NCBI GenBank assembly: GCA_000004985.1
Contig: GG738902.1
Length of the DNA: 64,000 bases
Source of the DNA: Naegleria gruberi
Taxonomy: Eukaryota
Reading direction: 5' to 3' (one strand)
Positions 12,786-49,381 of this stretch are shown piece by piece; position 1 is the stretch's first letter, and every line of letters starts with the position of its first letter. Both the position numbers and the translations under genes were made by a program. The notes beneath the pieces are model-generated. The model saw only the letters and a program-made list of their open reading frames with translations, was not told the origin of the DNA and did no database searches.

Positions 12786-15700
12786 ATGTCCAAATTGCTT
12801 CTCCTACTATTACTTTCTCTTTTATTTGCAACAACAACAACACGAATAATCAGTGCCTACATCCTGCTACCACAACAATCAGCATCATCTTCACTTTATA
12901 ATAACCAAGATGATAATTCATCATCAACAACTATAATAACATCATCCTCATCATCATCAAATGTATTACTTTCTGCTACAGCAGCAGTGGTGGTGGAGAG
13001 GAATAAAACATTCTATATCAATGAAGCGAATGGCACACAAAGTGGTGATTGTTCCGAGCCTTCAAAAGCCTGCTCCTCCATCCTCTATTTAACTGGTTTG
13101 ATTTCACGATCGACCGATTATTTAACAAACAAGTTTTTAATCTATCTAATAGGAGATTGTATTAAATATGAACCAATAACATTCAGTACCATGACCTTGA
13201 CGAGTACTTTTATATTTCTCTCATACAATGATTCAAATAATACAAATAATAGTAGTGGCAGTACAGTTAATAGAGTGACATTGGCAAATAAGAGATGGTT
13301 AGCTCAATTTTCAAGTATGGGATTTGAAAATTTAATTGTGGACAAGATGGAAATATTTCCAGGAGATGGATTTTCATTTGTGAATTGTCTGGTTAGAGGG
13401 ATGAGTTTGAAGAGAGGATTTACTTGGATGATTGTGAAGAATACAGTGATTGAGGATTCAATTTTTGGAGATGATAGTGTCACGAGTTATATGAGGAATA
13501 AGGACGATAGACCAGTGATTGAAATTACACAGAGTAGAATTGTTCGTTCAAAGATGAATTTAGAATCAATTACTAATGTTATGAACTGTAATTTTACCGA
13601 ATCTAATATGACGATTAGCAATTCAGTATCTTCAACATTGCAGAATATTGCTGTTAACAATTCTAGAATTTTATTAAGAGTTGTCTTTTATATTAATGTG
13701 AATTATTTTGATTGCTCCAATAGTAGTTCATCATTTGCAATTGATGGAGCCAATGAGGTTAAAATTGTGAGGTTCAATTTTGAGAATTGTAATAATTATG
13801 GAGAAAGTACTCTCTTCTCTACTGTTAGGACTTTAAATATTGATCACATGAATTATATTAGAAATAAGGGTGCACTTACGTTTTTAGGAGTTTACCAAAC
13901 TAATATGGGATCATCTAATTTTATTGAGAATAGAAATGGTGCCATTCAAGTGGAAAATCATGGCGACTCACCAACATATTTTGTCGTGCAAGGTTCCAAG
14001 TTTTTGAGAAATAGCAGATTATCAAATGGTGGAGCTATTTATATGGATTCAGCTTTATCAAATTTCCATACCTATTCTAGTGTATTTGAAGATAATATGG
14101 CATTGAATGGAGGTGCTGTATATGTATTAGCATCCATTAGAAATACCTATACCAATACTGTTTTTAACAGAAATAAGGTTACAGACTGTGCTAAATGCGG
14201 TAATGGTGGAGCTCTTTATTCCAACACAAACTCTCTAGAGTGGAGATCCTCCAATTTTACAAATAATGTAGCCATTAAGGGAGGAGCTGTTTTTATTGAT
14301 AGAGTACCATCTATTACCTTTGAAACTCAGGATATTGTGTTTCAAAATAATGAAGCTCAATTTGGATCAGACTTTTTCTTTGAAAAGTATGAAGTTGACA
14401 AGTTCCCTGTTGATAAATATGCAAACTCTACTGCCAGCTCAATTATGAAGAGTTTCAAAGTACTCATGAATAATATTGAGATAGACTCAGGAAAGAACTT
14501 TGATGTCTATCCAGGTGAAACGATACAATTACAATATTCCTTTGAAGACATATTTGGAAATAGAATTGAATCTTCTCATAATCAACCTGTCATATCCTCT
14601 GATGCAAATATTACTCTATACACAGTTTTTACCTCAAATACGGACTTTAAGTTGCTCTTTGATTTGAATAATAAGGGAGAGATATCTACAACTGTTGAAT
14701 TGGTCATTGCCTATTCAGAATTTACTGTAATTAGTGAATTGCATCTCACCATTGCTCCATGTCCACAGTATCATCGTTTACAACAGGTCAATTTTAATGG
14801 ATACAAATGTGTCAAGCAAGATGTATTGCTTATTATCATTTCCTCTGTACTTTCATTTATTTCCCTGCTTATAATAATACCATTCATTTCATTCATTCTT
14901 TACAGGTTTGCACTCAAAAAGTTGTTTATATTCTACAAGAGAGAACGAGAGGAGAGAAGAATTGAAAAGCAATTGAAAGATTACCTCTTTAGAAATATTA
15001 ATGCCAATGATGAGAAACAAGGTCTCCTCAAATCTTTGACACATTCTAATATGATAATTCCAATCAGTGACATTCAAATTGTTTCCAAAATAGGAGAAGG
15101 ATCGAATGGTGTAGTATATTTGGGGCGATGGAAACAAACTGACGTTGCCCTCAAAAGTATCAAACATGATTCTACCGATATTGATATTGAAAATCAATTA
15201 GAAGAATTTGAACATGAAGCTTCCTTATTAGCAAGCTTACGTCATCCCAATGTCATTTCATTTTATGGTATTAGTTTCGGTCTCAATGTACAATACATGG
15301 TAGTTGAATATTCAGTTAATGGAAGTTTGGACAAGGCAATTCATCAATCCAAGATTAAGAAGAAGGTTCTCAGTTTTAGAGATAAGATTAATATTGTTCT
15401 TGGAATTTCAAAAGGTTTAAATTACTTGCATTCATTGAGACCACAAATGATTGTTCACAGGTATGTATTTGAATAGTCTTATTGAGATTAATACTGAAAT
15501 TATCAAATAATTTTAGAGATTTGAAACCTGGAAATATTCTATTGGATAGTAATTTTGAGCCAAAGGTAACAGATTTTGGAATGAGTCGATTTATTGGAAC
15601 TGAAAATTCATCCATGACCATGAATGTTGGTACATTACGATATTGTGCACCTGAGATATTCAACAATGACAAACACGATGCCAATCACATGGTCGATGTC

Positions 15701-25485: not shown

Positions 25486-26568
25486 ATGAACAATTACGAT
25501 GTAAGTTTCGTCTACCAACCATCTCATCATCCAACATGATTTCATCATCTCATCCACAGTTCGATTCCATCAACAAGGAAAGCAAAAAACAAGTGTAAGT
25601 TCAAATTTGAATCACAAGTCCAATATAATGTTGAAATAATATTCACAAACAGTGCTTGTCGTATCGTTGTCGGTGTTTGCATCCTTGGTTGCTGTATCTT
25701 TGCTGTCATTGCTGCTGTCGTCTTGGCTGCAGTCTTCTTCCCAAGAAGTCCAAATATTGTTAGTCAGTATGTATATATATATTAGAATCATTCATCATTC
25801 TCATCATCATATTTTGTTGTTGATTGGAATATCATCATCTTTATCGGAATGATATTAGACAATTGTATTTTACTCAATTTTCAGTGGATTTTTGTCCTGC
25901 TCAAAGTAAGAGCAATAATTCGGCATGTTGTGTTGGAAGTTCGTGTACCTTTTCCTATAATAATGCAACATTGGGTATTGCTTCGTATTTTGTGGTGCGA
26001 GCTACGAATGGTAACTTGTTTAATATATCATTGAATGCGTAGGTTTTATGATAATTTGATGATGAAATATTAATTCTTGATGGATGATGATGGTGTGGAT
26101 TTTATGTATTGATGTGATAATTGATGATTTTAGAGTCAAGATTGAAATCATGTATGGATCGGAAGTGATCGGTTCGAGTGCTTCGGAGAGTTATCCTGTT
26201 GGTCCACAAACTACTCAAGGTTTGTACTCATTGAAAATTACTTTATTCCTTAATTAATTAATTAATTCAATTTAAATTTAATAATTTTATTTGAAAATAC
26301 AAATAATAATGTGGAATGAAATGTAGATGTTAATGTACCAATTATATGGAAATCTTCTCTGAGTAGTAATGTAATGAAATCAATCATGTGCCAACTCACA
26401 GGTAATAACAATGCCTTACCTTATACATTCACGTTAAGTATGGGTTCAGTGACTTACTTCCTCAATACATTTGCATTCTCAAGTCAAACAGCAAGTCTTC
26501 AAGCTTCCATAGATGTTTGCTCATCCAATTGTAAAGTACAATACTACTCTTCAATGTGTCCAACCTAA
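25486..26568 (+). CDS. Six-exon gene for a type-II membrane protein resembling the LEA_2 / NDR1-HIN1-like family (not evident from the ORF track)
   Basis: Exons: 25486..25500, 25560..25594, 25653..25766, 25859..26038, 26134..26219, 26327..26568. The total is 672 nt, or 223 codons plus stop. Donors are GTAAGT, GTAAGT, GTATGT, GTAGGT and GTTTGT; all acceptors are AG. The product has the TM helix ACRIVVGVCILGCCIFAVIAAVVLAAVFFPRSPNIV. It continues QLYFTQFSVD...FVVRATNGNLFNISLNAVKIEIMYGSEVIGS. An alternative start at ATG 25536 (intron 1 retained) is also in frame. Confidence 0.55.
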
Positions 26569-41575: not shown

Positions 41576-43992
41576 TTACTCAAACTCCCTTGTAAATATT
41601 CCAGAAAGATCTTGTTCTGATAAAAAGGAACTACTCTCCCAAAATAGTGGATTCTCAAATCCTGTAATACCAACAGACGAGTAGTCTTCTGGTTGAGTAG
41701 GTGTAACTTCAATATTCAGTTGTGTATTTAGTGGAATGTCAATAGGAGTAGGTTGTACACTCACAACACGTCTAACTCTTATCAGAGACAAGTATTGTTC
41801 CATGTCTGCAAGAAGGTCCTTAAAGAAAAGCTCAACAAACTTGTATCGTTTTTTCATCAAATTAAAAGCTCTCATATCCTTCTCAAGAATATCGAAATAA
41901 TCAATTCCGTTATATCTGAAATCTGTACTTTGGCTTGAAATTAGTGTTTTGACAATTTGTAAATGCACATTGGTTGCCTTGGCTACACAGACAAGAGTTT
42001 CTATAGGGAAGAGTGGAAACCAAGCATGTTGCGTTATTTCTGTAATTTCCAAAGCTGCCTTCTCCATAATATCCCTAACAGTTGGATTGTGTGATTTAGA
42101 TAGAATTGAAATTCTCAGTGAGTTTGCAATTAGAGTAAATATTGGATCAACTAGTTCTTCATACTCAGGTCCTACAATTCACTTGTTCAGATATTTGTTT
42201 TATAATGAAACTTACCATATGAAAAACATGCAAGAGCAGGACTCTTTGTTGGAGTGTCTATCAATCCTTTGGCCACCTTTTTGATATTCTCCACACACAT
42301 TTGGACAACACTCCAAATTTCAAAACAATTTTCACTATTAACTTCTCTAGTCACTACACCGATCCATTCCTCTGGAAATTTATCCATTGTAAAGAAGCTA
42401 TAAATATCAGGCAATCTTCTGAGGAATTCTTTCAAGTCCAAACGATTCAAATCATCTCCCAATACATTGTTAAAATAAAATACAAGATTTTCCAAATTTC
42501 TCTCACAGTCTGTCATAGTAGCTCTCTTCTCCTCGCCACTGAGTTGCGTCTTGACATAGTACTGGAGAATTTGCATGTAGAATTTTGCATTTTCGTATCT
42601 TCCAACCCAGCCTTCATACGAGGCCAAATTACCATAAGTTGCTGCAATATGATAGCTTTGAATTTGGTCAAACATTTTAGAAAGTGCCTTTTTGGCTCTT
42701 TGAGCTGTCTTTTCTGCTAGCTCAGCGAGTCCATATCTACATTCACACAATGCTCTCACCGATAAGAAGAGAGGGAACATTTCCTTCTTGTTGCTCTTTT
42801 CTCCTTCGATATCATTTGGTGTTGTAATGTAATTTTCCAATTCTTCCTTGCTCACCAATGGACATCCATCACATGCAATATCAAAATAAAAGTCAATCAC
42901 ATTTCTCTTACTGAGATGACCAACTTCTTCCACATTATCACTATCGGAATCACTATTTTTTTCTGCAATATTATTGTTGGTGGTTGAATGGTATGGTTTG
43001 AATTTTGGATCATTCGAAACTACACCATCCTTTGGTTTGAATGAGGTAACTCCTTTCTTTTTCTTTCTCTTCTTTTTTTCCTCAGTTCCCTTGATTGCAT
43101 TCCTCTTTGATTCTCTATAAATACATTCCACAGATCGTTGTGTACATGCTGTACAACATGGCAATTTCTTATCTGTAATATTATGGTGAATTTTAAAATC
43201 AACAAATAATAAAATACCTACCACTATTAAGGATTTAAAATTAAAATGTTATTTAGATTATTTACATACCATTTTCTATTAAATAGTTAATAATATGAAG
43301 ATTAAAAACACATACCGATGCTGCTTTCTACAAGGCTCACAGGCAATTGGAAAGAATTCAGTATTATCGTCTGTTGCAGCTGTTTGATTTGGTGAGCCAG
43401 TCTTTTCGTTACCTTCTGAACCATTACTACTGCTACTACTCGATTGGCCATTAATAACATTAGTTGATAAATTAATATTTTGATTTGGAATAAATCCTCT
43501 ATTATTATTTACAAAATTCAAATATTCTTGTTGTCTTTGTTGGAAAAGCAATCCGAAACTGTTTGGATTCATTCCTCCCAATAATTGTTGCTGCATTAAT
43601 ATTTGTTGAAGACTTGGATTGTGATTATTCATCATTAATTGTTGATTTACAGGATTCATTGCAGGTTGTTGATTATTTACAGAAGAAATCGATGGATCTT
43701 GAACAGTTTCCCAACCAGAAGCAGAATTTCCTAAAGACTTTCCGAGTGATGATAAAAATCCACCATTATTTCCACTACTTGTATTATCATTACCTAAATT
43801 TGAAAGGAAATTCATTGATGATCCACTATTACTATTATTCATCATCATCATATTATTCATCAATACATTATTCATCATCAACTGGTGCTGAGACGTTGCC
43901 GAATAGCTTTGATTATTACTATTCATTTCAAACGTTTGTTTGGTGTTGTTATTTGTTGGTTCCGAGTTGTCTTGATGATTTAACGGACGCAT
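41576..43992 (-). CDS. Zn2Cys6 (Gal4-type) binuclear-cluster transcription factor, five exons including 6-nt and 2-nt micro-exons
   Basis: Exons (minus strand): 43992..43316, 43275..43270 (AAAATG), 43223..43222 (TG), 43172..42216, 42171..41576. The total is 2238 nt, or 745 codons plus stop. Donors are GTATGT, GTATGT, GTAGGT and GTAAGT; all acceptors are AG. The spliced product reads ACEPCRKQHRKCDKKLPCCTACTQRSVECIY (C-x2-C-x6-C-x6-C-x2-C-x6-C). The last intron (42215..42172) joins ...CFSYG to PEYEELVDPIFTLIANSLRISIL. That junction is collinear with the plus-strand paralog. Confidence 0.75.
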
Positions 43993-44561
43993 TTTTTTCT
44001 TTTAGAATTTAAAATTTCCCGCTACAAAAATGTTAAACACTTCAAAATTGGAATTAAAATTTTGTAATATTGTACCAAATAAATATGTTTAATCAAATTC
44101 CATTCTTGTAATTCATATCCTTTTGTTGTACAGCTTCACCAAGTCAACCAATAGACAATATTTGAACGATTCCACTTATTTTTTTCTATCAGGAAAATGC
44201 TTGAACAGAATCCTCAAATAATGATGAAGGAATGAGATCATAAATGAGTTTGAAGAATTGTCTTTCCACTCAGTATCATCATGTTATCAATACTGAGATC
44301 AACATGCTTAGTAGAGGTGGAGAATAATAAAATTGAAATACCAGCAGCACTTTGGAGGACCTCCATTCGATTCTTGCTCCAATCGTGCTCTTTTTTGTCT
44401 CTTGTTCTCAATTATCAATGTGCGCTCAATTTCCGACGCAAGAATCAAAAAAAAAAAAGACGTTTTCCGTTCGCTCGTCCGTGATGCTTTAGAAACAAGC
44501 AACAGATAACAACACTGTAAAAAAGAAGAATTTGTGGCGTTTTGAGAAAGAGAAGGAAAGA
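43993..44561. promoter_or_regulatory. Shared divergent promoter region between the two Zn2Cys6 paralogs
   Basis: A 569-bp spacer separates start codons 43992 (minus) and 44562 (plus). It contains only short ORFs of no coding character. Confidence 0.4.
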
Positions 44562-47128
44562 ATGAATTCGTCATCAACATCACCACAACAGGCTCCTCCT
44601 CAAGGCTTTGGAAGTTTTCCTTCCTCCCCTAACAATAACATGTATACACAGCCTCAGCAACAACAATATTCTTCCTATAATAATAGTTTAAATAGTAGTA
44701 ATAGTACTAATAACAACATGATGATGATGAATAGTGTCCACCATCATCAGCCTCTTCCTTCATCTCCTTATAATCAACATCATCATGTGGCATCTCAATC
44801 AAACACCTCACAACAGCAACAGTATTATGATAATAACAATAATTATCAGGAATATAATAGACCACCGAATAATAATAACATGAATCATTCATCATCGATG
44901 AATAATGGTACGATGATTTCACTTCCTAGTCAAAATTCCTCCTATCAGACGTCACCATCACAATATGGCAACAGTAATAACAATAACTTTATTTATAATA
45001 TTCCACCACCATCCACACCACAGCAACCACCACCTCAACAAAATTATCATAATGGAATGCAAGGAATGAGTAGTAGTTCATATCAATTTGCGAATAGTAA
45101 TGGAATGCACAATAGAATGAATAATCAAAATGTGTCACCACCCATGAATCAACAACAAAATCTCGAATCAAGTCCAGAAGAAAATTCGTCATCACCAAAT
45201 GCTGAGCAATTGGGAAATTCGGATTTTCATCCCATCGCCTGTATAAATTGCAGAAAGCAACACAAACAATGGTAAGTTTAGTTATATTTGGAATTAAATC
45301 GATAACATTTTATAGTGGTAAGTATTAAATAAGAGAAATTGATTATTTAATGTTTCGGATATATAATTTAAACCTATCAGATAAGAAATTACCAAGTTGT
45401 CAACGATGTATTTCGAAAGGTATAACTTGTGAATATAAAACGCCTAGAAGAATGAGATATCCAAATCAGTCGAAACAAAAACAACAGCAACAGTCAACTG
45501 AGGAACAGCAACAATCAGAACCAAAGAAGAAGAAAAAGAAAACCGACTCGAAAGATAACCTAACACCAAAATCAAACTCTCCTCTCGATCCAGAAAATGT
45601 TTGTGCTCCAAATACAACTCTCACTAGCAGATTCCCTCAAACTCTCTCAAAAAAGAATATTATTGATATTTATTATAGCATGATATGCGATCACTTTATA
45701 TTTATTGAAAAACCAGTATTGGAAAAGTATATTCTTTCCAAGAGTAATAGTGAAGATGTGGATGATTCAGAATTACCACTCAAGAAGGAAATGCAGACAT
45801 TCTTCTTCTCTGTGACAGCACTAGTGGAACAACGTATGGGAATGGGAGATTTATCTGAAAAATCAGCAAAGAAGGCTAGAGATTGTCTTTCTAAACTTTT
45901 TGATGAAATGAATAACTTTGTAGTTGCCTGTTCGTATGCAAATTTGGGATCATATGAGATTGGATCAGGACGAGTCAAACTATCCAGGTTCTATTTCCAT
46001 AATGCCAAGTTTTACTTTGAAAGTTTGGACGATTCTGAAAAGTCAAGGTTATCAGAGCATGAAAAGGCTCTCCAAAAATACTTGACATCAGTGGAAATTG
46101 TAAATGCAGATAATGATCTAGGAATTTCAGCCATGATACATGACATGCCAAAAGTTTTTCATTTCACCACAGGACATCACTTACCTCAAGAAATTGTTAA
46201 AGCAACTCAACAAGAGGTCAGTCCTTCGAATTGTTTGGACTATCTCAAGATTGTGGAAATGATTGCCTCGTACTTGAACAAGTATTTCAGAGGTATGGCC
46301 ACTAAAACTAGAGGAGAAAAGGAAATGGAAATGTATGACAAGGGTAGTAATCTCTGCCAAGGTTTACTAATGAACGGATTACGTGTAGGTGTCTTGACTA
46401 AGGCAGGGTATGGCAAGGATCTTATTGAAGAGTCTTCTTTGAGAATTACGTATGCGTCCGAGAGTGAATTTTTTCCATTCCTTCCTGTTATTGTAATTCC
46501 ACACGTTGCTCTCGCTGCCCGTATTCACTTACAAATTGTAAAAAAGATTGAAAATGGTACCAGACAAAATCATCAGAAAGGGCTCACTTTCCAAAATACC
46601 GTTGGACCTATTGATTATTTTGATATTCTGGCAAAAGATTACAGATCACTCATTATTCTCTCTAAAAGATTTAAGAGAGTGTCGGTATGTTACGGTTCTC
46701 TCCTTGATGAAATTAAAGAGATTTTAGGTAGGAGAGTTGAAGCTCAGCAAAACAACGACACCACCTCGACAAATAACTCTAATACTGTTACTACCCCAAT
46801 TGCAGATGATGCACTCTTACAGCCACTTTCCTTAGACTCTTCCAGCCTGCCTCCACTGTCCTTCCTTCTAGGTTCTATGAATGATAATCCTTCACTACCT
46901 CAATCTTCAAGCTCTCAAAAATCAACCCTTGATGGATATGCTTCCAACAATTTACAACAAAGCATTTTCAATTCAATAATTCAATCTCCAATCAAATCAC
47001 CCTCACAACAACAAGAGTTGTACTTTGCTGATCCATTCTTTACACACGAAGATTTACAACAAATATTTTCTCCACATACGTATGGCGATTTTGAGGATGT
47101 ATCAGAATATAGTTTTAATGTGAAATAA
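44562..47128 (+). CDS. Zn2Cys6 (Gal4-type) binuclear-cluster transcription factor, three exons including a 2-nt micro-exon
   Basis: Exons: 44562..45271, 45316..45317 (TG), 45381..47128. The total is 2460 nt, or 819 codons plus stop. The ORF-track start at 44532 is TTG. Both donors are GTAAGT (45272 and 45318). Acceptors are TTTTATAG (ends 45315) and CCTATCAG (ends 45380). The product reads ACINCRKQHKQCDKKLPSCQRCISKGITCEY. The N-terminus is Q/N-rich and the C-terminal region is collinear with the minus-strand paralog. Confidence 0.8.
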
Positions 47129-47154: not shown

Positions 47155-47493
47155 CTATTGTTCTTCCACGTATTTGGCTACATATTCAGGATAGCATGGC
47201 AATCTATCTCCTAGCATAACGTGGTGATTACCAGTTTGAGTTTCAGCTGTTGGTTCAAAGACTGGTTCCAAAGGCTTTTCCACAAATACTTCGTGATCTT
47301 TCTTAACTGGTAATTCTTCCTTCTTTTCTTCAACAACTGGTGTTTCTGTAATTGTTTCTTCCTTCTTTTCTTCAACTGGTGCTTCTACAACTTGAGTAGT
47401 TTCCACAGAAATTGGTGGTACTTGTTCAATTGAACAAATAAATGGAATTGTTTCTTGAATTAACTTTTTACAATTTTCAACTTGATAATTCAA
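47155..47493 (-). CDS. E/K/P/V-rich ORF without an ATG, probably the displaced 3' end of the upstream ankyrin/coiled-coil gene
   Basis: The 112-codon ORF starts at TTG. It has coding-like internal repeats (PVEEKKEETITETPVVEEKKEELPV). It overlaps the preceding ORF by 17 nt in a frame offset by +1. I found no canonical intron that joins them. Confidence 0.35.
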   Translation of the reverse strand: MNYQVENCKKLIQETIPFICSIEQVPPISVETTQVVEAPVEEKKEETITETPVVEEKKEELPVKKDHEVFVEKPLEPVFEPTAETQTGNHHVMLGDRLPCYPEYVAKYVEEQ

Positions 47494-49381
47494 TCAGGTA
47501 AATTCCAATTTGAACTTTTTTAGGAATAAATTGTTGTAATTCAACAGTTTCGTTTCCAAGGCTCTCCATGATTTTTCTTAATAATTCATAAATTTCAATA
47601 ATTTCACTTAATTCATCCTTATTTAACAATTGAATGTCAGTTAAATATTCTTGATTCAAATATGTTTTGATAAATTCATCCAATACTATTAACTTCTCTT
47701 CCAATTCTTGAATATATTTGGTCAATTTCATTAAAAAATTCTCCGATTTAATGCTTTCTACCATACAAGTCATGTTTAACTTTAGTTCATCAACTTGTGA
47801 ACTTTCTTGTTCAAGTTTCAATTCATTAGCATGTTCAAAACAATTCTTTAACTTTTCACAAATTTCCAAATATTCTTTTTGAAATTCATTTTCTAATACA
47901 GTACATAAAACCTTAATTGCATTGATTTGTGAATTGGATTGAGTTTCTTCTTGTCTTTCAATATTTGTTTCTTGTGTTTCGTCTTGTTCTTTAATATTTT
48001 CGTCTTGTTTTTCGAGAGTTTCTTGATTTTCATCATGTTTTTCCTCTTGTTGTTCGAGAGTTTCTTGGTTTTCATCATGTTTTTCAAGTGGTTCTTGTTT
48101 TTCAAGAATTTCTTTCTTAATTTTATCTTTTTCAACTTTTTCATTCAATTCCTTCTTAATTTTGGAAATTTCCTTTCCGTTGACTTTCCATAAATTGTTA
48201 ATTTTAATATTTGGTGATTGAAGTAATAATTTAACAATTTCTAAACGTCCTTTTTCACATGCAATATGTAATGGAGACTAATAAATATTTAAAAATGTTG
48301 TAATTATTATTACTTACTTCCTATTATGGTAATGTTTAAAATAAGTATTAAATACAAACCATCTAAATAATAATGTAAAATATTTTAAATATTTAATTCT
48401 TACATGCTACGAGGAAATAATTAATAAATTAATTATTAATTTACATACTTCCTAAAATAGATAAATAATTTAATTGGTTAATTACTCACTTTCTAATAAC
48501 AAAGTTGGCAAATTAATTTCAATATTTAATAATACTAACTTCCTATTAAAAAAATTAATATTAAATATTAAAAATACTAACAATCTAAAAAAATGTAAAT
48601 ATTTAAAATTGTTTAAAAACTTACAACTCTCTAAAACAAATATACACGTAATTTAATTAGTAGAGACTTACTTGCTAATAAAAATATTAATTTAAGATTA
48701 TATTACTTAAATTACATACTTCCTAATAAGGAACTTGTTCATAAATAAAGAATTTAATACTTACTCCCTAATAATATTAACATTAAATAGTTATAAGTGA
48801 AATACTAACTTTCTAATAAATTATTTTATAAATAACTAAGTATTAAATACTTACATGCTAATAAAATGCTAATTTAATACAAAATTACCAAATTTAGAAT
48901 ACTTACATACTAAAAATAGTATTATTTTTATATTTTTTAATATTAAATTACTTACAGTCTGAAAATATTATTATTACAATGCTAGCAACACTTACAAACT
49001 AATAGCATTAAATATAAATAATTAATTATTCAATTCCTTACATACTAATTAATTATTTAGTATTTTACAATATTTCCTTAAATACTTACTTTCTACAATC
49101 ATACCCATTTAGATCTTATTAAACAATTGATATTCTACTCACATACTACTCAATTTTAAATATTTATAATGTTAATATTAAATAGTACTTACTCCCTTAT
49201 TCACATCAAGTCCTCCACAATTCAACAATAACTTGACAATTTCCAAATGTCCCCTCTCACAAGCCATGTACAACAATGTCTTATTCCGATCAGATTCATT
49301 TACCTTCGTTGGCTTGAAATACTTTTTAAACTCGGCAACGTTTCCACTATTTGCAGCATCTACAAGATGAGGAGAGAGCAT
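47477..49381 (-). CDS. Ankyrin-repeat plus acidic coiled-coil protein; exon 1 49381..49193, long exon 48277..47477, separated by the mini-intron/micro-exon array
   Basis: Exon 1 reads MLSPHLVDAANSGNVAEFKKYF...TLLYMACERGHLEIVKLLLNCGGLDVNKG and ends in phase 0 before GTAAGT. The exon from 48277 reads SPLHIACEKGRLEIVKLLLQSPNIKINNLWKVNGKEISK..., continuous with ORF 48148..47477. The M of that track entry is a TTG codon. Confidence 0.7.
48278..49192 (-). other. Array of 20 mini-introns (37-50 nt) separated by 19 micro-exons (18 of 3 nt, one of 6 nt)
   Basis: Micro-exons on the minus strand: 49145-49143 TAT; 49092-49090 AAA; 49044-49042 TAT; 48998-48996 TTT; 48958-48956 ACT; 48909-48907 TAT; 48857-48855 CAT; 48812-48810 AAA; 48767-48765 GGA; 48722-48720 GAA; 48674-48672 CAA; 48630-48625 AGAGTT; 48584-48582 ATT; 48542-48540 GAA; 48492-48490 AAA; 48451-48449 GAA; 48406-48404 CAT; 48362-48360 ATG; 48320-48318 GAA. 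Each is preceded by (T/A-rich)AG. Each is followed by GTAAGT (10 times; 11 counting the exon-1 donor), GTTAGT (3), GTATGT (2), GTGAGT (2), GTAAGG, GTAAGA or GTTTGT. Intron lengths sum to 855 nt and exon lengths to 60 nt, matching the 915-nt span. Confidence 0.7.

What the first reader, a model, noticed from the sequence alone, without database searches (positions are those of the whole stretch)
45272..45380. A 2-nt micro-exon (TG) is required to encode the third cysteine of the Zn2Cys6 cluster (plus-strand paralog)
Exon 1 ends ...TGC AGA AAG CAA CAC AAA CAA TG followed by GTAAGT (45272). The next long exon begins AT AAG AAA TTA CCA AGT TGT after ...CCTATCAG (ends 45380).

Joining them directly gives TG+A = TGA, a stop. 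Inside the gap lies TTTTATAG|TG|GTAAGT (TG at 45316-45317), a 2-nt segment flanked by a canonical acceptor and donor.

Including it gives CAA TGT GAT AAG, that is ...ACINCRKQHKQ-C-DKKLPSCQRCISKGITCEY. This is the exact Gal4-type spacing C-x2-C-x6-C-x6-C-x2-C-x6-C. It also puts the 592-codon downstream ORF in frame.

The two flanking introns are 44 and 63 nt. The same AG|TG|GT arrangement sits at the same codon in the paralog on the other strand. Two-nucleotide exons are at the extreme lower limit of what has been reported for spliceosomal genes.
Basis: seen in the sequence. Interest (0 to 1): 0.8.

Follow-up and report, generated by a model that had tools for sequence, protein, structure and literature searches.

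The report
Two-nucleotide exon in Naegleria gene
A Naegleria gruberi transcription-factor gene can only encode its zinc-binding DNA-binding domain if a 2-base exon (TG) between two tiny introns is spliced in; comparison with related genes strongly supports this, but exons this short (even 1 base) are already known elsewhere and no RNA evidence could be obtained here.

Summary
The window is Naegleria gruberi. Exon 1 ends CAATG at 45271. A 44-nt GTAAGT...TATAG intron follows, then TG (45316-45317), then a 63-nt GTAAGT...ATCAG intron. The 592-codon ORF resumes at 45381.

Only inclusion of TG gives an in-frame product with a canonical Zn2Cys6 domain (Pfam Zn_clus 38.1 bits, cut-off 21). The best single-intron alternative scores 13.1 bits.

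The predicted HKQCDKK matches the N. lovaniensis ortholog, where HKQCDK is contiguous. It also matches two N. fowleri annotations, where QCDK is a 12-nt micro-exon.

The ancient paralog on the minus strand (29% identity, unalignable introns) has the same AG|TG|GT at the same codon, preceded by a further 6-nt micro-exon. Its public model, XP_002671912.1, already requires both micro-exons. The plus-strand model, XP_002671853.1, is truncated and lacks the domain.

Verdict: almost certainly a real 2-nt exon, inferred without RNA data. It is a new member of a known kind, because 1-nt exons have been validated in plants and Fusarium.

In passing: a neighbouring ankyrin gene carries about 19 consecutive 3-nt exons separated by about 42-nt introns.

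The parts
44562..45271 (+). Gene A (plus-strand Zn2Cys6 gene), exon 1. N/Q-rich N-terminus plus the first half of the Zn cluster (C-x2-C-x6, ending CAA TG).
   Evidence: ORF 44532-45275; first ATG at 44562. FHPIACINCRK is conserved in the N. fowleri and N. lovaniensis orthologs. The start codon is inferred.
45272..45315 (+). Intron 1, 44 nt: GTAAGT...cgATAAC(10 nt)...TATAG.
   Evidence: The branch-like motif ATAAC, with its A at 45305, is a motif match only.
45316..45317 (+). 2-nt micro-exon TG. It supplies the third base of Cys3 (TG|T) and the first base of Asp (G|AT).
45318..45380 (+). Intron 2, 63 nt: GTAAGT...TTTAAAC...CTATCAG.
   Evidence: The same intron position (Asp codon, phase 1) occurs in the minus paralog and in N. 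fowleri P0005.
45381..47128 (+). Gene A, exon 3. Second half of the Zn cluster (AT AAG AAA TTA CCA AGT TGT...) plus the C-terminal domain, with the stop codon included.
   Evidence: The public model XP_002671853.1 (P0001, 558 aa) covers only the part from MRYPNQ onward.
43316..43992 (-). Gene B (minus-strand paralog, NAEGRDRAFT_73151), exon 1, ending ...CAT CG.
   Evidence: It matches P0006.
43276..43315 (-). Gene B intron a, 40 nt: GTATGT...AATAG.
43270..43275 (-). Gene B 6-nt micro-exon AAAATG. It completes Arg, encodes Lys and supplies the first two bases of Cys3.
   Evidence: P0006 contains CRKQHRKCDKK. The N. fowleri and N. lovaniensis orthologs encode CRKQHRKC without introns.
43224..43269 (-). 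Gene B intron b, 46 nt: GTATGT...TTAATAG.
43222..43223 (-). Gene B 2-nt micro-exon TG, at the same codon positions as in gene A.
   Evidence: It is required by the public protein P0006.
43173..43221 (-). Gene B intron c, 49 nt: GTAGGT...ATTACAG.
42216..43172 (-). Gene B exon 4 (AT AAG AAA TTG CCA TGT TGT ...).
42172..42215 (-). Gene B intron d, 44 nt: GTAAGT...TTGTAG. It is an independent example of a 44-nt intron in this genome.
   Evidence: The junction FSYG|PEYEE is present in P0006 and is spanned by the intron-less homolog P0007.
41576..42171 (-). Gene B exon 5, through the stop codon.

Best explanation
Bases 45316-45317 (TG) are a genuine internal 2-nt exon of an N. gruberi Gal4-type (Zn2Cys6) transcription-factor gene. 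The public model of that gene is truncated.

The pre-mRNA carries two independent U2-type mini-introns of 44 and 63 nt. Each has a GTAAGT donor, its own branch-like xTAAC/TAAAC motif 8-10 nt from the 3' end, and a YAG acceptor.

The donor of intron 2 begins 2 nt after the acceptor of intron 1. The two splicing complexes therefore cannot sit there together, and the introns are most likely removed one after the other, in either order. Each step is then an ordinary short-intron, intron-defined splicing event.

The product reads CAA TGT GAT AAG (Q-C-D-K). This supplies the third zinc-ligand cysteine and puts the 592-codon exon in frame. Skipping TG gives CAA TGA and a truncated protein without a DNA-binding domain.

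Shown here: the sequence anatomy, the frame logic, recovery of the domain, and agreement with homologs. Inferred: actual inclusion in mRNA, the order of intron removal, and the branch points.
For: - The anatomy and frame are exact.
- TAGTGGTADGT occurs only at the two paralogous sites in 128 kb of sequence, against 0.05 expected.
- A window-wide scan for AG|<=15 nt|GT between two AT-rich mini-introns found such sites in only three genes, plus one spurious hit.
- Of the 27 stop-free single-intron models, only one uses the GTAAGT donor. It gives KQCCQRC, which lacks the Cys3-Cys4 loop. It scores 13.1 bits on Pfam Zn_clus, against 38.1 bits with TG and a cut-off of 21.
- The N. lovaniensis ortholog encodes CAT AAG CAG TGT GAC AAG without interruption.
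- The N. fowleri ortholog has a 12-nt micro-exon CAATGCGATAAG. It is present in XP_044567429.1 and CAG4711921.1 as CRKMHKQCDKKLPSC.
- The paralog is 29% identical and its introns are no more similar to those of gene A than shuffled sequence. It still retains AG|TG|GT at the same codon.
- The paralog's public model XP_002671912.1 contains CRKQHRKCDKK, which can only be built using the 6-nt and 2-nt exons.
- 44-nt GTAAGT introns are otherwise used in this genome. Intron d of gene B is one, supported by P0006 and by the intron-less P0007.
Against: - There is no cDNA or RNA-seq evidence. No protein containing the predicted junction exists in the 15-billion-sequence collection. A scan of JGI metagenome contigs for the spliced junction found nothing.
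- The JGI model for this gene omits the whole N-terminal part.
- The 2-nt exon is not conserved in the N. fowleri or N. lovaniensis orthologs. Their introns sit 5 nt further out on each side, or are absent. Cross-species conservation of the exon itself is therefore lacking.
- The JGI paralog model may be computational rather than EST-based.
Confidence: 0.85

Rival explanations
1. One 125-nt intron (donor 45272, acceptor AG at 45395-45396) is removed. The in-frame product is ...CRKQHKQCCQRCISKGITCEY, with no micro-exon.
For: This is the only single-intron model that uses the strong GTAAGT donor and stays open.
Against: - The acceptor TTACCAAG lies inside conserved coding sequence (KLPS).
- The model deletes DKKLPS, which is present in every homolog.
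- Pfam Zn_clus falls to 13.1 bits, below the cut-off of 21.
- It does not explain the AG|TG|GTAAGT signal or its twin in the paralog.
Confidence: 0.03
2. The upstream ORF and the 592-codon ORF are not one functional gene. Either the locus is a decaying pseudogene, or the real gene is the truncated public model that starts at MRYPNQ and has no DNA-binding domain.
For: The public model XP_002671853.1 is exactly that truncated form. No transcript evidence is available.
Against: - The two halves of one Zn2Cys6 domain lie on either side of the gap.
- The N. fowleri and N. lovaniensis orthologs are single genes with the same N-terminal exon, and FHPIACINCRK is identical.
- The 247-codon upstream ORF and the 592-codon downstream ORF are both intact.
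- The splice signals are perfect.
Confidence: 0.05
3. The TG exon is real but is often skipped on purpose. Skipping produces CAA TGA, so the micro-exon would act as an on/off switch (unproductive splicing) for the factor. This is compatible with the main explanation, not exclusive of it.
For: Skipping creates an immediate TGA in both paralogs. Ultra-short exons are generally prone to skipping (background in PMC4674806).
Against: Nothing here measures isoform ratios. In N. fowleri, skipping the 12-nt exon stays in frame, so the switch logic is not conserved.
Confidence: 0.15
4. The AG|TG|GT is a chance or neutral internal motif in a single 109-nt intron.
For: Introns of about 90-110 nt exist elsewhere in the window, so length alone does not argue against a single intron.
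Against: - Removing all 109 nt gives a TGA stop.
- The expected count of the motif is 0.05 per 128 kb, about 4e-5 per 109 nt.
- The same motif sits at the same codon in a 29%-identical paralog whose introns are unalignable.
Confidence: 0.01

Closest known systems
1-nt constitutive exons of plant APC11 and VPS55 (Guo & Liu 2015, PMC4674806; Yu et al. 2022, PMC8831610)
   Same: Both are ultra-short internal exons flanked by canonical AG and GTRAGT. Both are required for the reading frame, are missed by genome annotation so that proteins come out truncated, and have homologous copies that are intron-less and act as a ruler.
   Different: This exon is 2 nt, not 1. It is in a heterolobosean protist with 44- and 63-nt introns. 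The plant cases are validated by RT-PCR and RNA-seq, and this one is not. The plant exons are conserved across land plants, whereas this one is seen only in two N. gruberi paralogs.
1-nt exon in Fusarium CYP621A P450 genes (Nelson & Syed 2026, PMC12940212)
   Same: The logic of inference is identical: a phase mismatch between two exons inside a conserved motif, a candidate AG|N|GT in the gap, and an intron-less family member as a length marker. [quoted passage not shown]
   Different: SRA reads confirm the Fusarium exon. It is conserved in 20 orthologs. Here the orthologs place the introns differently.
Adjacent micro-exons in plants (for example 5-nt + 12-nt in rice Os08t0562700, PMC8831610)
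   Same: The minus-strand paralog has two consecutive micro-exons (6 nt + 2 nt) separated by a 46-nt intron.
   Different: The exons here are smaller, the introns are much shorter, and there is no RNA validation.
Recursive splice sites (ratchet points) of Drosophila long introns (recalled from general knowledge, not checked in a paper here)
   Same: An acceptor is immediately followed by a regenerated GTAAGT donor, which implies stepwise removal of two intron segments.
   Different: Ratchet points leave 0 nt and lie in very long introns. Here 2 nt are retained and are essential, and the whole unit is 109 nt.
Gal4-type Zn2Cys6 binuclear cluster proteins (Pfam PF00172)
   Same: The six-cysteine spacing is C-x2-C-x6-C-x6-C-x2-C-x6-C, and Pfam scores 38.1 bits against a cut-off of 21.
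   Different: The host is non-fungal (Naegleria). No other Pfam domain was detected in the 489-aa segment scanned at E<=1. The C-terminal domain is shared only with Naegleria and Willaertia homologs.

Membership tests
Ultra-short internal spliceosomal exon (<=3 nt), as in APC11, VPS55 and CYP621A | Flanked upstream by a canonical 3' splice site (YAG) and downstream by a canonical 5' splice site (GTRAGT) | tested here: met
   TTTTATAG|TG|GTAAGT. The motif occurs twice in the window against 0.05 expected.
Ultra-short internal spliceosomal exon (<=3 nt), as in APC11, VPS55 and CYP621A | Required to reconcile the phases of the flanking exons; omission causes a frameshift or a stop | tested here: met
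   Exon 1 ends in phase 2 and exon 3 starts in phase 1. Skipping gives TGA. No single canonical intron restores the domain.
Ultra-short internal spliceosomal exon (<=3 nt), as in APC11, VPS55 and CYP621A | The product matches the uninterrupted sequence of homologs | tested here: met
   HKQCDK is contiguous in N. lovaniensis. CRKMHKQCDKK is present in two N. fowleri annotations. The B orthologs and the metagenome homologs L004 and L006 have no intron here.
Ultra-short internal spliceosomal exon (<=3 nt), as in APC11, VPS55 and CYP621A | The same micro-exon is conserved in related genes | tested here: inconclusive
   It is conserved in the 29%-identical N. gruberi paralog. It is not conserved in the N. 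fowleri ortholog (12-nt exon) or the N. lovaniensis ortholog (no upstream intron).
Ultra-short internal spliceosomal exon (<=3 nt), as in APC11, VPS55 and CYP621A | The junction is observed in mRNA (cDNA, RNA-seq or RT-PCR) | not testable with these tools
   No transcript-derived protein was found. The junction pattern is absent from JGI metagenome contigs.
Zn2Cys6 (Gal4-type) binuclear cluster, Pfam PF00172 | Six cysteines with spacing C-x2-C-x6-C-x5-12-C-x2-C-x6-8-C | tested here: met
   C IN C RKQHKQ C DKKLPS C QR C ISKGIT C.
Zn2Cys6 (Gal4-type) binuclear cluster, Pfam PF00172 | Scores above the Pfam gathering threshold | tested here: met
   38.1 bits against 21 with TG, and 13.1 bits for the single-intron alternative.
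Zn2Cys6 (Gal4-type) binuclear cluster, Pfam PF00172 | Binds two Zn ions and DNA | not testable with these tools
   This needs biochemistry.
Recursive splice site (0-nt ratchet point) | The acceptor AG is directly abutted to a regenerated GT donor, with no nucleotide retained | tested here: not met
   Two nucleotides lie between AG and GT and are needed in the mRNA.
Stwintron (intron nested in a splice signal of another intron) | Complete excision of the nested unit joins the outer exons productively | tested here: not met
   Excision of 45272-45380 as a whole gives CAA TGA.

The most novel reading that the evidence does not exclude
N. gruberi may have a lineage-specific tendency to generate and faithfully process clusters of mini-introns (about 40-60 nt) separated by exons of only 2-6 nt.

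Three neighbouring genes in this window point that way:
- a 2-nt exon in gene A;
- 6-nt + 2-nt exons in gene B;
- about 19 consecutive 3-nt exons in an ankyrin gene.

The N. fowleri and N. lovaniensis orthologs of the two Zn2Cys6 genes lack these arrangements. If the chain is really spliced exon by exon, this organism would be a natural system for ordered or recursive splicing across near-zero-length exons, and for intron proliferation, for example by tandem duplication of intron-plus-codon units.
Probability: 0.3. Interest if true: 0.8.

Novelty: new member of a known kind. Interest (0 to 1): 0.5.

Why it matters
- **Annotation.** It corrects a public gene model. XP_002671853.1 lacks its DNA-binding domain. 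One N. fowleri model, XP_044567455.1, drops four residues including a zinc ligand.
- **Range of the phenomenon.** It extends exons of 2 nt or fewer to Heterolobosea, a lineage far from plants, fungi and animals. This suggests the ability to splice across near-zero-length exons is a general property of the spliceosome.
- **Intron turnover.** The small Zn-cluster region shows at least seven different intron positions among Naegleria homologs. This is useful material for studying intron gain, loss and sliding.
- **Limits.** The finding is a curiosity rather than a new principle, and it still needs RNA confirmation.

Tried and rejected
1. I enumerated all single GT/GC..AG introns joining the two ORFs. 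None restores the six-cysteine pattern.
2. I searched for transcript-level evidence. Homology searches found no transcript-derived protein spanning the junction. An exact look-up of the predicted 819-aa protein found it absent from the collection. A scan of JGI metagenome contigs for the spliced junctions of both paralogs gave 0 hits.
3. I tried search for related loci on metagenome contigs with a 7-protein alignment. It matched 343 patterns, none confirmed.
4. I tested whether the introns of the two paralogs are homologous. Alignment scores are no better than for shuffled sequence. Recent gene conversion is therefore not the reason for the shared arrangement.
5. I considered the argument that a double-length intron betrays a hidden exon, and rejected it. 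Other introns in the window reach 92-107 nt.
6. N. gruberi DNA for further paralogs could not be fetched. P0006 is not on record in the contig index. P0012, from Willaertia, is not on record either.
7. Literature searches for Naegleria plus microexon or micro-exon, and for Zn2Cys6 plus micro-exon, returned nothing relevant.
8. Tandem Repeats Finder does not see the ankyrin intron chain as a tandem repeat. Pairwise intron similarity there is only weakly above shuffled sequence (mean z 0.78).
Full report
**Identity of the window.** The downstream ORF is 100% identical to the N. gruberi predicted protein XP_002671853.1 (NAEGRDRAFT_73153, 558 aa). The window's GC content is about 33%. The window is therefore nuclear DNA of the heterolobosean amoeboflagellate Naegleria gruberi, not a fungus.

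**Check of the observation.** The sequence is exactly as described.
- Exon 1 ends ...CAC AAA CAA TG at 45271.
- Bases 45272-45315 are a 44-nt GTAAGT...TTTTATAG unit.
- Bases 45316-45317 are TG.
- Bases 45318-45380 are a 63-nt GTAAGT...CCTATCAG unit.
- AT AAG AAA TTA CCA AGT TGT follows, in the frame of the 592-codon ORF.

With the first ATG at 44562, the three-exon CDS is 2460 nt and encodes 819 aa containing ACINCRKQHKQCDKKLPSCQRCISKGITCEY. Leaving TG out gives CAA TGA.

The 11-mer TAGTGGTADGT occurs only twice on both strands of the window, at this site and at the paralogous site. Shuffles predict 0.05 occurrences.

**The paralog.** It reads ...CAT CG|GTATGT(40 nt)AATAG|AAAATG|GTATGT(46 nt)TTAATAG|TG|GTAGGT(49 nt)TTACAG|AT AAG AAA. 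A 6-nt exon (43275-43270) is therefore followed by the 2-nt exon (43223-43222), giving H-R-K-C-D-K-K. A further ordinary 44-nt intron lies at 42215-42172.

The public protein for this gene is XP_002671912.1 (NAEGRDRAFT_73151, P0006). It contains FFPIACEPCRKQHRKCDKKLPCC and matches my spliced model at 100% over 551 aa. That sequence can only be assembled with both micro-exons. A 2-nt exon is thus already implicit in the GenBank annotation of the paralog. I could not determine whether ESTs supported that model.

**Alternatives for the plus-strand gene.** I enumerated every GT/GC...AG single intron that joins exon 1 to the long ORF without a stop.
- There are 27 such models, and 26 of them use donors with no consensus.
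- The only one using the GTAAGT at 45272 ends at an AG inside the coding sequence (45396). It yields ...KQCCQRC..., deleting the conserved DKKLPS loop.
- On Pfam Zn_clus (PF00172, gathering cut-off 21 bits), the TG model scores 38.1 bits and this alternative scores 13.1 bits.

**Homologs as a ruler.**
- The N. lovaniensis ortholog lies in L005, next to the ortholog of the paralog, in the same neighbourhood. It encodes CAT AAG CAG TGT GAC AAG without interruption, followed by one intron.
- The N. fowleri ortholog (L001) has CAT AAG|GTAAGT..AAAAG|CAA TGC GAT AAG|GTTAGT..TTCAG|AAA, which is a 12-nt micro-exon encoding QCDK.
- One NCBI model, XP_044567455.1 (P0002), skips that exon and falls below the Pfam cut-off (17.2 bits, against 36.7 when it is restored).
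- Two other N. fowleri annotations, XP_044567429.1 and CAG4711921.1, include it as CRKMHKQCDKKLPSC.
- The N. fowleri and N. lovaniensis orthologs of the minus-strand paralog encode CRKQHRKC with no intron.
- Two metagenome homologs (L004, L006) also have no intron in the Zn-cluster region.

In every case the homolog reads exactly as the N. gruberi micro-exon models predict.

**Conservation and evolution.**
- The two N. gruberi paralogs are only 29% identical. Each has its own ortholog in the other species, so the duplication is old.
- Their introns align no better than shuffled sequence. The AG|TG|GT junctions are nevertheless kept, which argues for selection on splicing.
- The 2-nt exon is not shared with N. 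fowleri or N. lovaniensis.
- Across the homologs examined, the approximately 60-nt Zn-cluster region carries introns at seven or more positions:
  - phase 0 before Cys2 (P0009, P0010, L010);
  - phase 2 in the Arg codon (Ng-B);
  - phase 0 after HK (Nf-A);
  - phase 2 in Cys3 (Ng-A, Ng-B);
  - phase 1 in Asp (Ng-A, Ng-B, Nf P0005);
  - phase 0 after DK (Nf-A, Nl-A);
  - phase 0 after DKK (Nl P0003).
- The Asp phase-1 intron is shared by three paralog lineages and is probably old. The Cys3 phase-2 intron is specific to N. gruberi.
- Whether this reflects loss in the fowleri/lovaniensis branch or gain in gruberi cannot be decided here.

**Mechanism.** This part is inferred.
- Each of the two introns has a consensus donor, a YAG acceptor and a branch-like motif at the usual distance. 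These are ATAAC with its A at 45305, 10 nt from the 3' end, and TTTAAAC with its A at 45372, 8 nt from the 3' end.
- Introns of 44 nt are used elsewhere in this genome (gene B intron d).
- The donor of intron 2 starts 2 nt after the acceptor of intron 1, and only about 13 nt after its putative branch point. Simultaneous assembly on both introns is sterically implausible.
- The likely route is sequential removal. Either order leaves a normal short intron next to a long exon.
- This resembles recursive splicing, except that 2 nt are kept.

**Comparison with what is known.**
- Validated 1-nt exons exist in Arabidopsis APC11 (PMC4674806), in plant VPS55 (PMC8831610) and in Fusarium CYP621A (PMC12940212).
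- PMC12940212 also notes that 2-5-bp exons were found computationally in Arabidopsis, Drosophila and humans.
- Adjacent micro-exons (5 + 12 nt) are validated in rice (PMC8831610).
- The present case is therefore a new member of a known kind. As far as my searches show, it is the first noted in Heterolobosea.

**Seen in passing.**
- The neighbouring ankyrin-repeat gene (minus strand, ATG at 49381) has 20 introns of 37-50 nt between 49192 and 48278. All 20 start with GT, all 20 end with AG, all 20 have G at +5, and 19 of 20 end in TAG.
- These introns are separated by 18 exons of 3 nt and one of 6 nt.
- The JGI model P0013 threads 11 micro-exons through this array, nine of them 3 nt long.
- Every unit is a multiple of 3, so any subset keeps the frame. 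Which exons are used is unknown.
- A window-wide scan finds AG|<=15 nt|GT between two AT-rich mini-introns only in these three genes, plus one spurious hit.
- This strengthens the view that N. gruberi really processes such exons. It deserves its own follow-up.

**Verdict.** RNA evidence is still missing. Novelty: a new member of a known kind. Interest is moderate (0.5). It would be higher if the broader micro-exon phenomenon in this genome proves real.

Noticed in passing
window 48278-49192, minus strand (gene from ATG 49381 to stop 47477): An ankyrin-repeat gene carries a chain of 20 mini-introns of 37-50 nt (median 42). All 20 have GT, all 20 have AG, all 20 have G at +5, and 19 of 20 end in TAG. 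They are separated by 18 exons of 3 nt and one of 6 nt: TAT AAA TAT TTT ACT TAT CAT AAA GGA GAA CAA AGAGTT ATT GAA AAA GAA CAT ATG GAA. The public model P0013 uses 11 micro-exons from this array. Any subset keeps the frame, so actual usage is unknown. No orthologs were found. TRF sees no tandem repeat, and intron-to-intron similarity is weak (mean z 0.78)..
   Followed up: partly
window 43270-43275, minus strand: A 6-nt micro-exon AAAATG lies one 46-nt intron upstream of the paralog's 2-nt exon. It makes two consecutive micro-exons (6 + 2 nt)..
   Followed up: yes
L001 3706-3972 (N. fowleri VFQX01000007.1): The N. fowleri ortholog has a 12-nt micro-exon CAATGCGATAAG (L001 3774-3785) between introns of 68 and 187 nt. 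NCBI model XP_044567455.1 skips it, losing QCDK including a zinc ligand, and scores 17.2 bits on Pfam (below the cut-off of 21). XP_044567429.1 and CAG4711921.1 include it..
   Followed up: yes
window 44562-45450, plus strand: The public N. gruberi model XP_002671853.1 (NAEGRDRAFT_73153) starts at MRYPNQ, downstream of the Zn cluster. It therefore lacks about 260 N-terminal residues and the whole DNA-binding domain..
   Followed up: yes
window 41576-47128 compared with L001 and L005: The two Zn2Cys6 paralogs are head-to-head in N. gruberi (B on the minus strand, A on the plus strand, 569-nt spacer). In N. fowleri and N. lovaniensis they are tandem on one strand (A then B, downstream of a Peptidase_C2 gene). 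This implies a local inversion or rearrangement..
   Followed up: no
window 43832-43894, minus strand: The JGI model P0006 removes a 63-nt in-frame segment (GTCTCAG...AATAATAG, with a weak donor) from the N/M-rich part of exon 1 of the paralog. The ORF is open across it, so this may be a prediction artefact or an exitron..
   Followed up: no
window ~47486-47493, minus strand, compared with L007 836-860: An ENA metagenome contig (ERZ929261) is about 94% identical and comes from a close N. gruberi relative. Relative to it, the window lacks 5 + 6 nt. This ends the ankyrin gene's ORF at ...IELSS* and puts the following 112-codon ORF (47493-47155) out of frame. In the relative the two ORFs are one..
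   Followed up: partly
window 25500-26400, plus strand: Another multi-intron gene has candidate introns of 58-107 nt (25595-25652, 25767-25858, 26039-26133, 26220-26326). A clean 56-nt intron lies at 15461-15516. These were used only as a rough guide to intron length in this genome..
   Followed up: no
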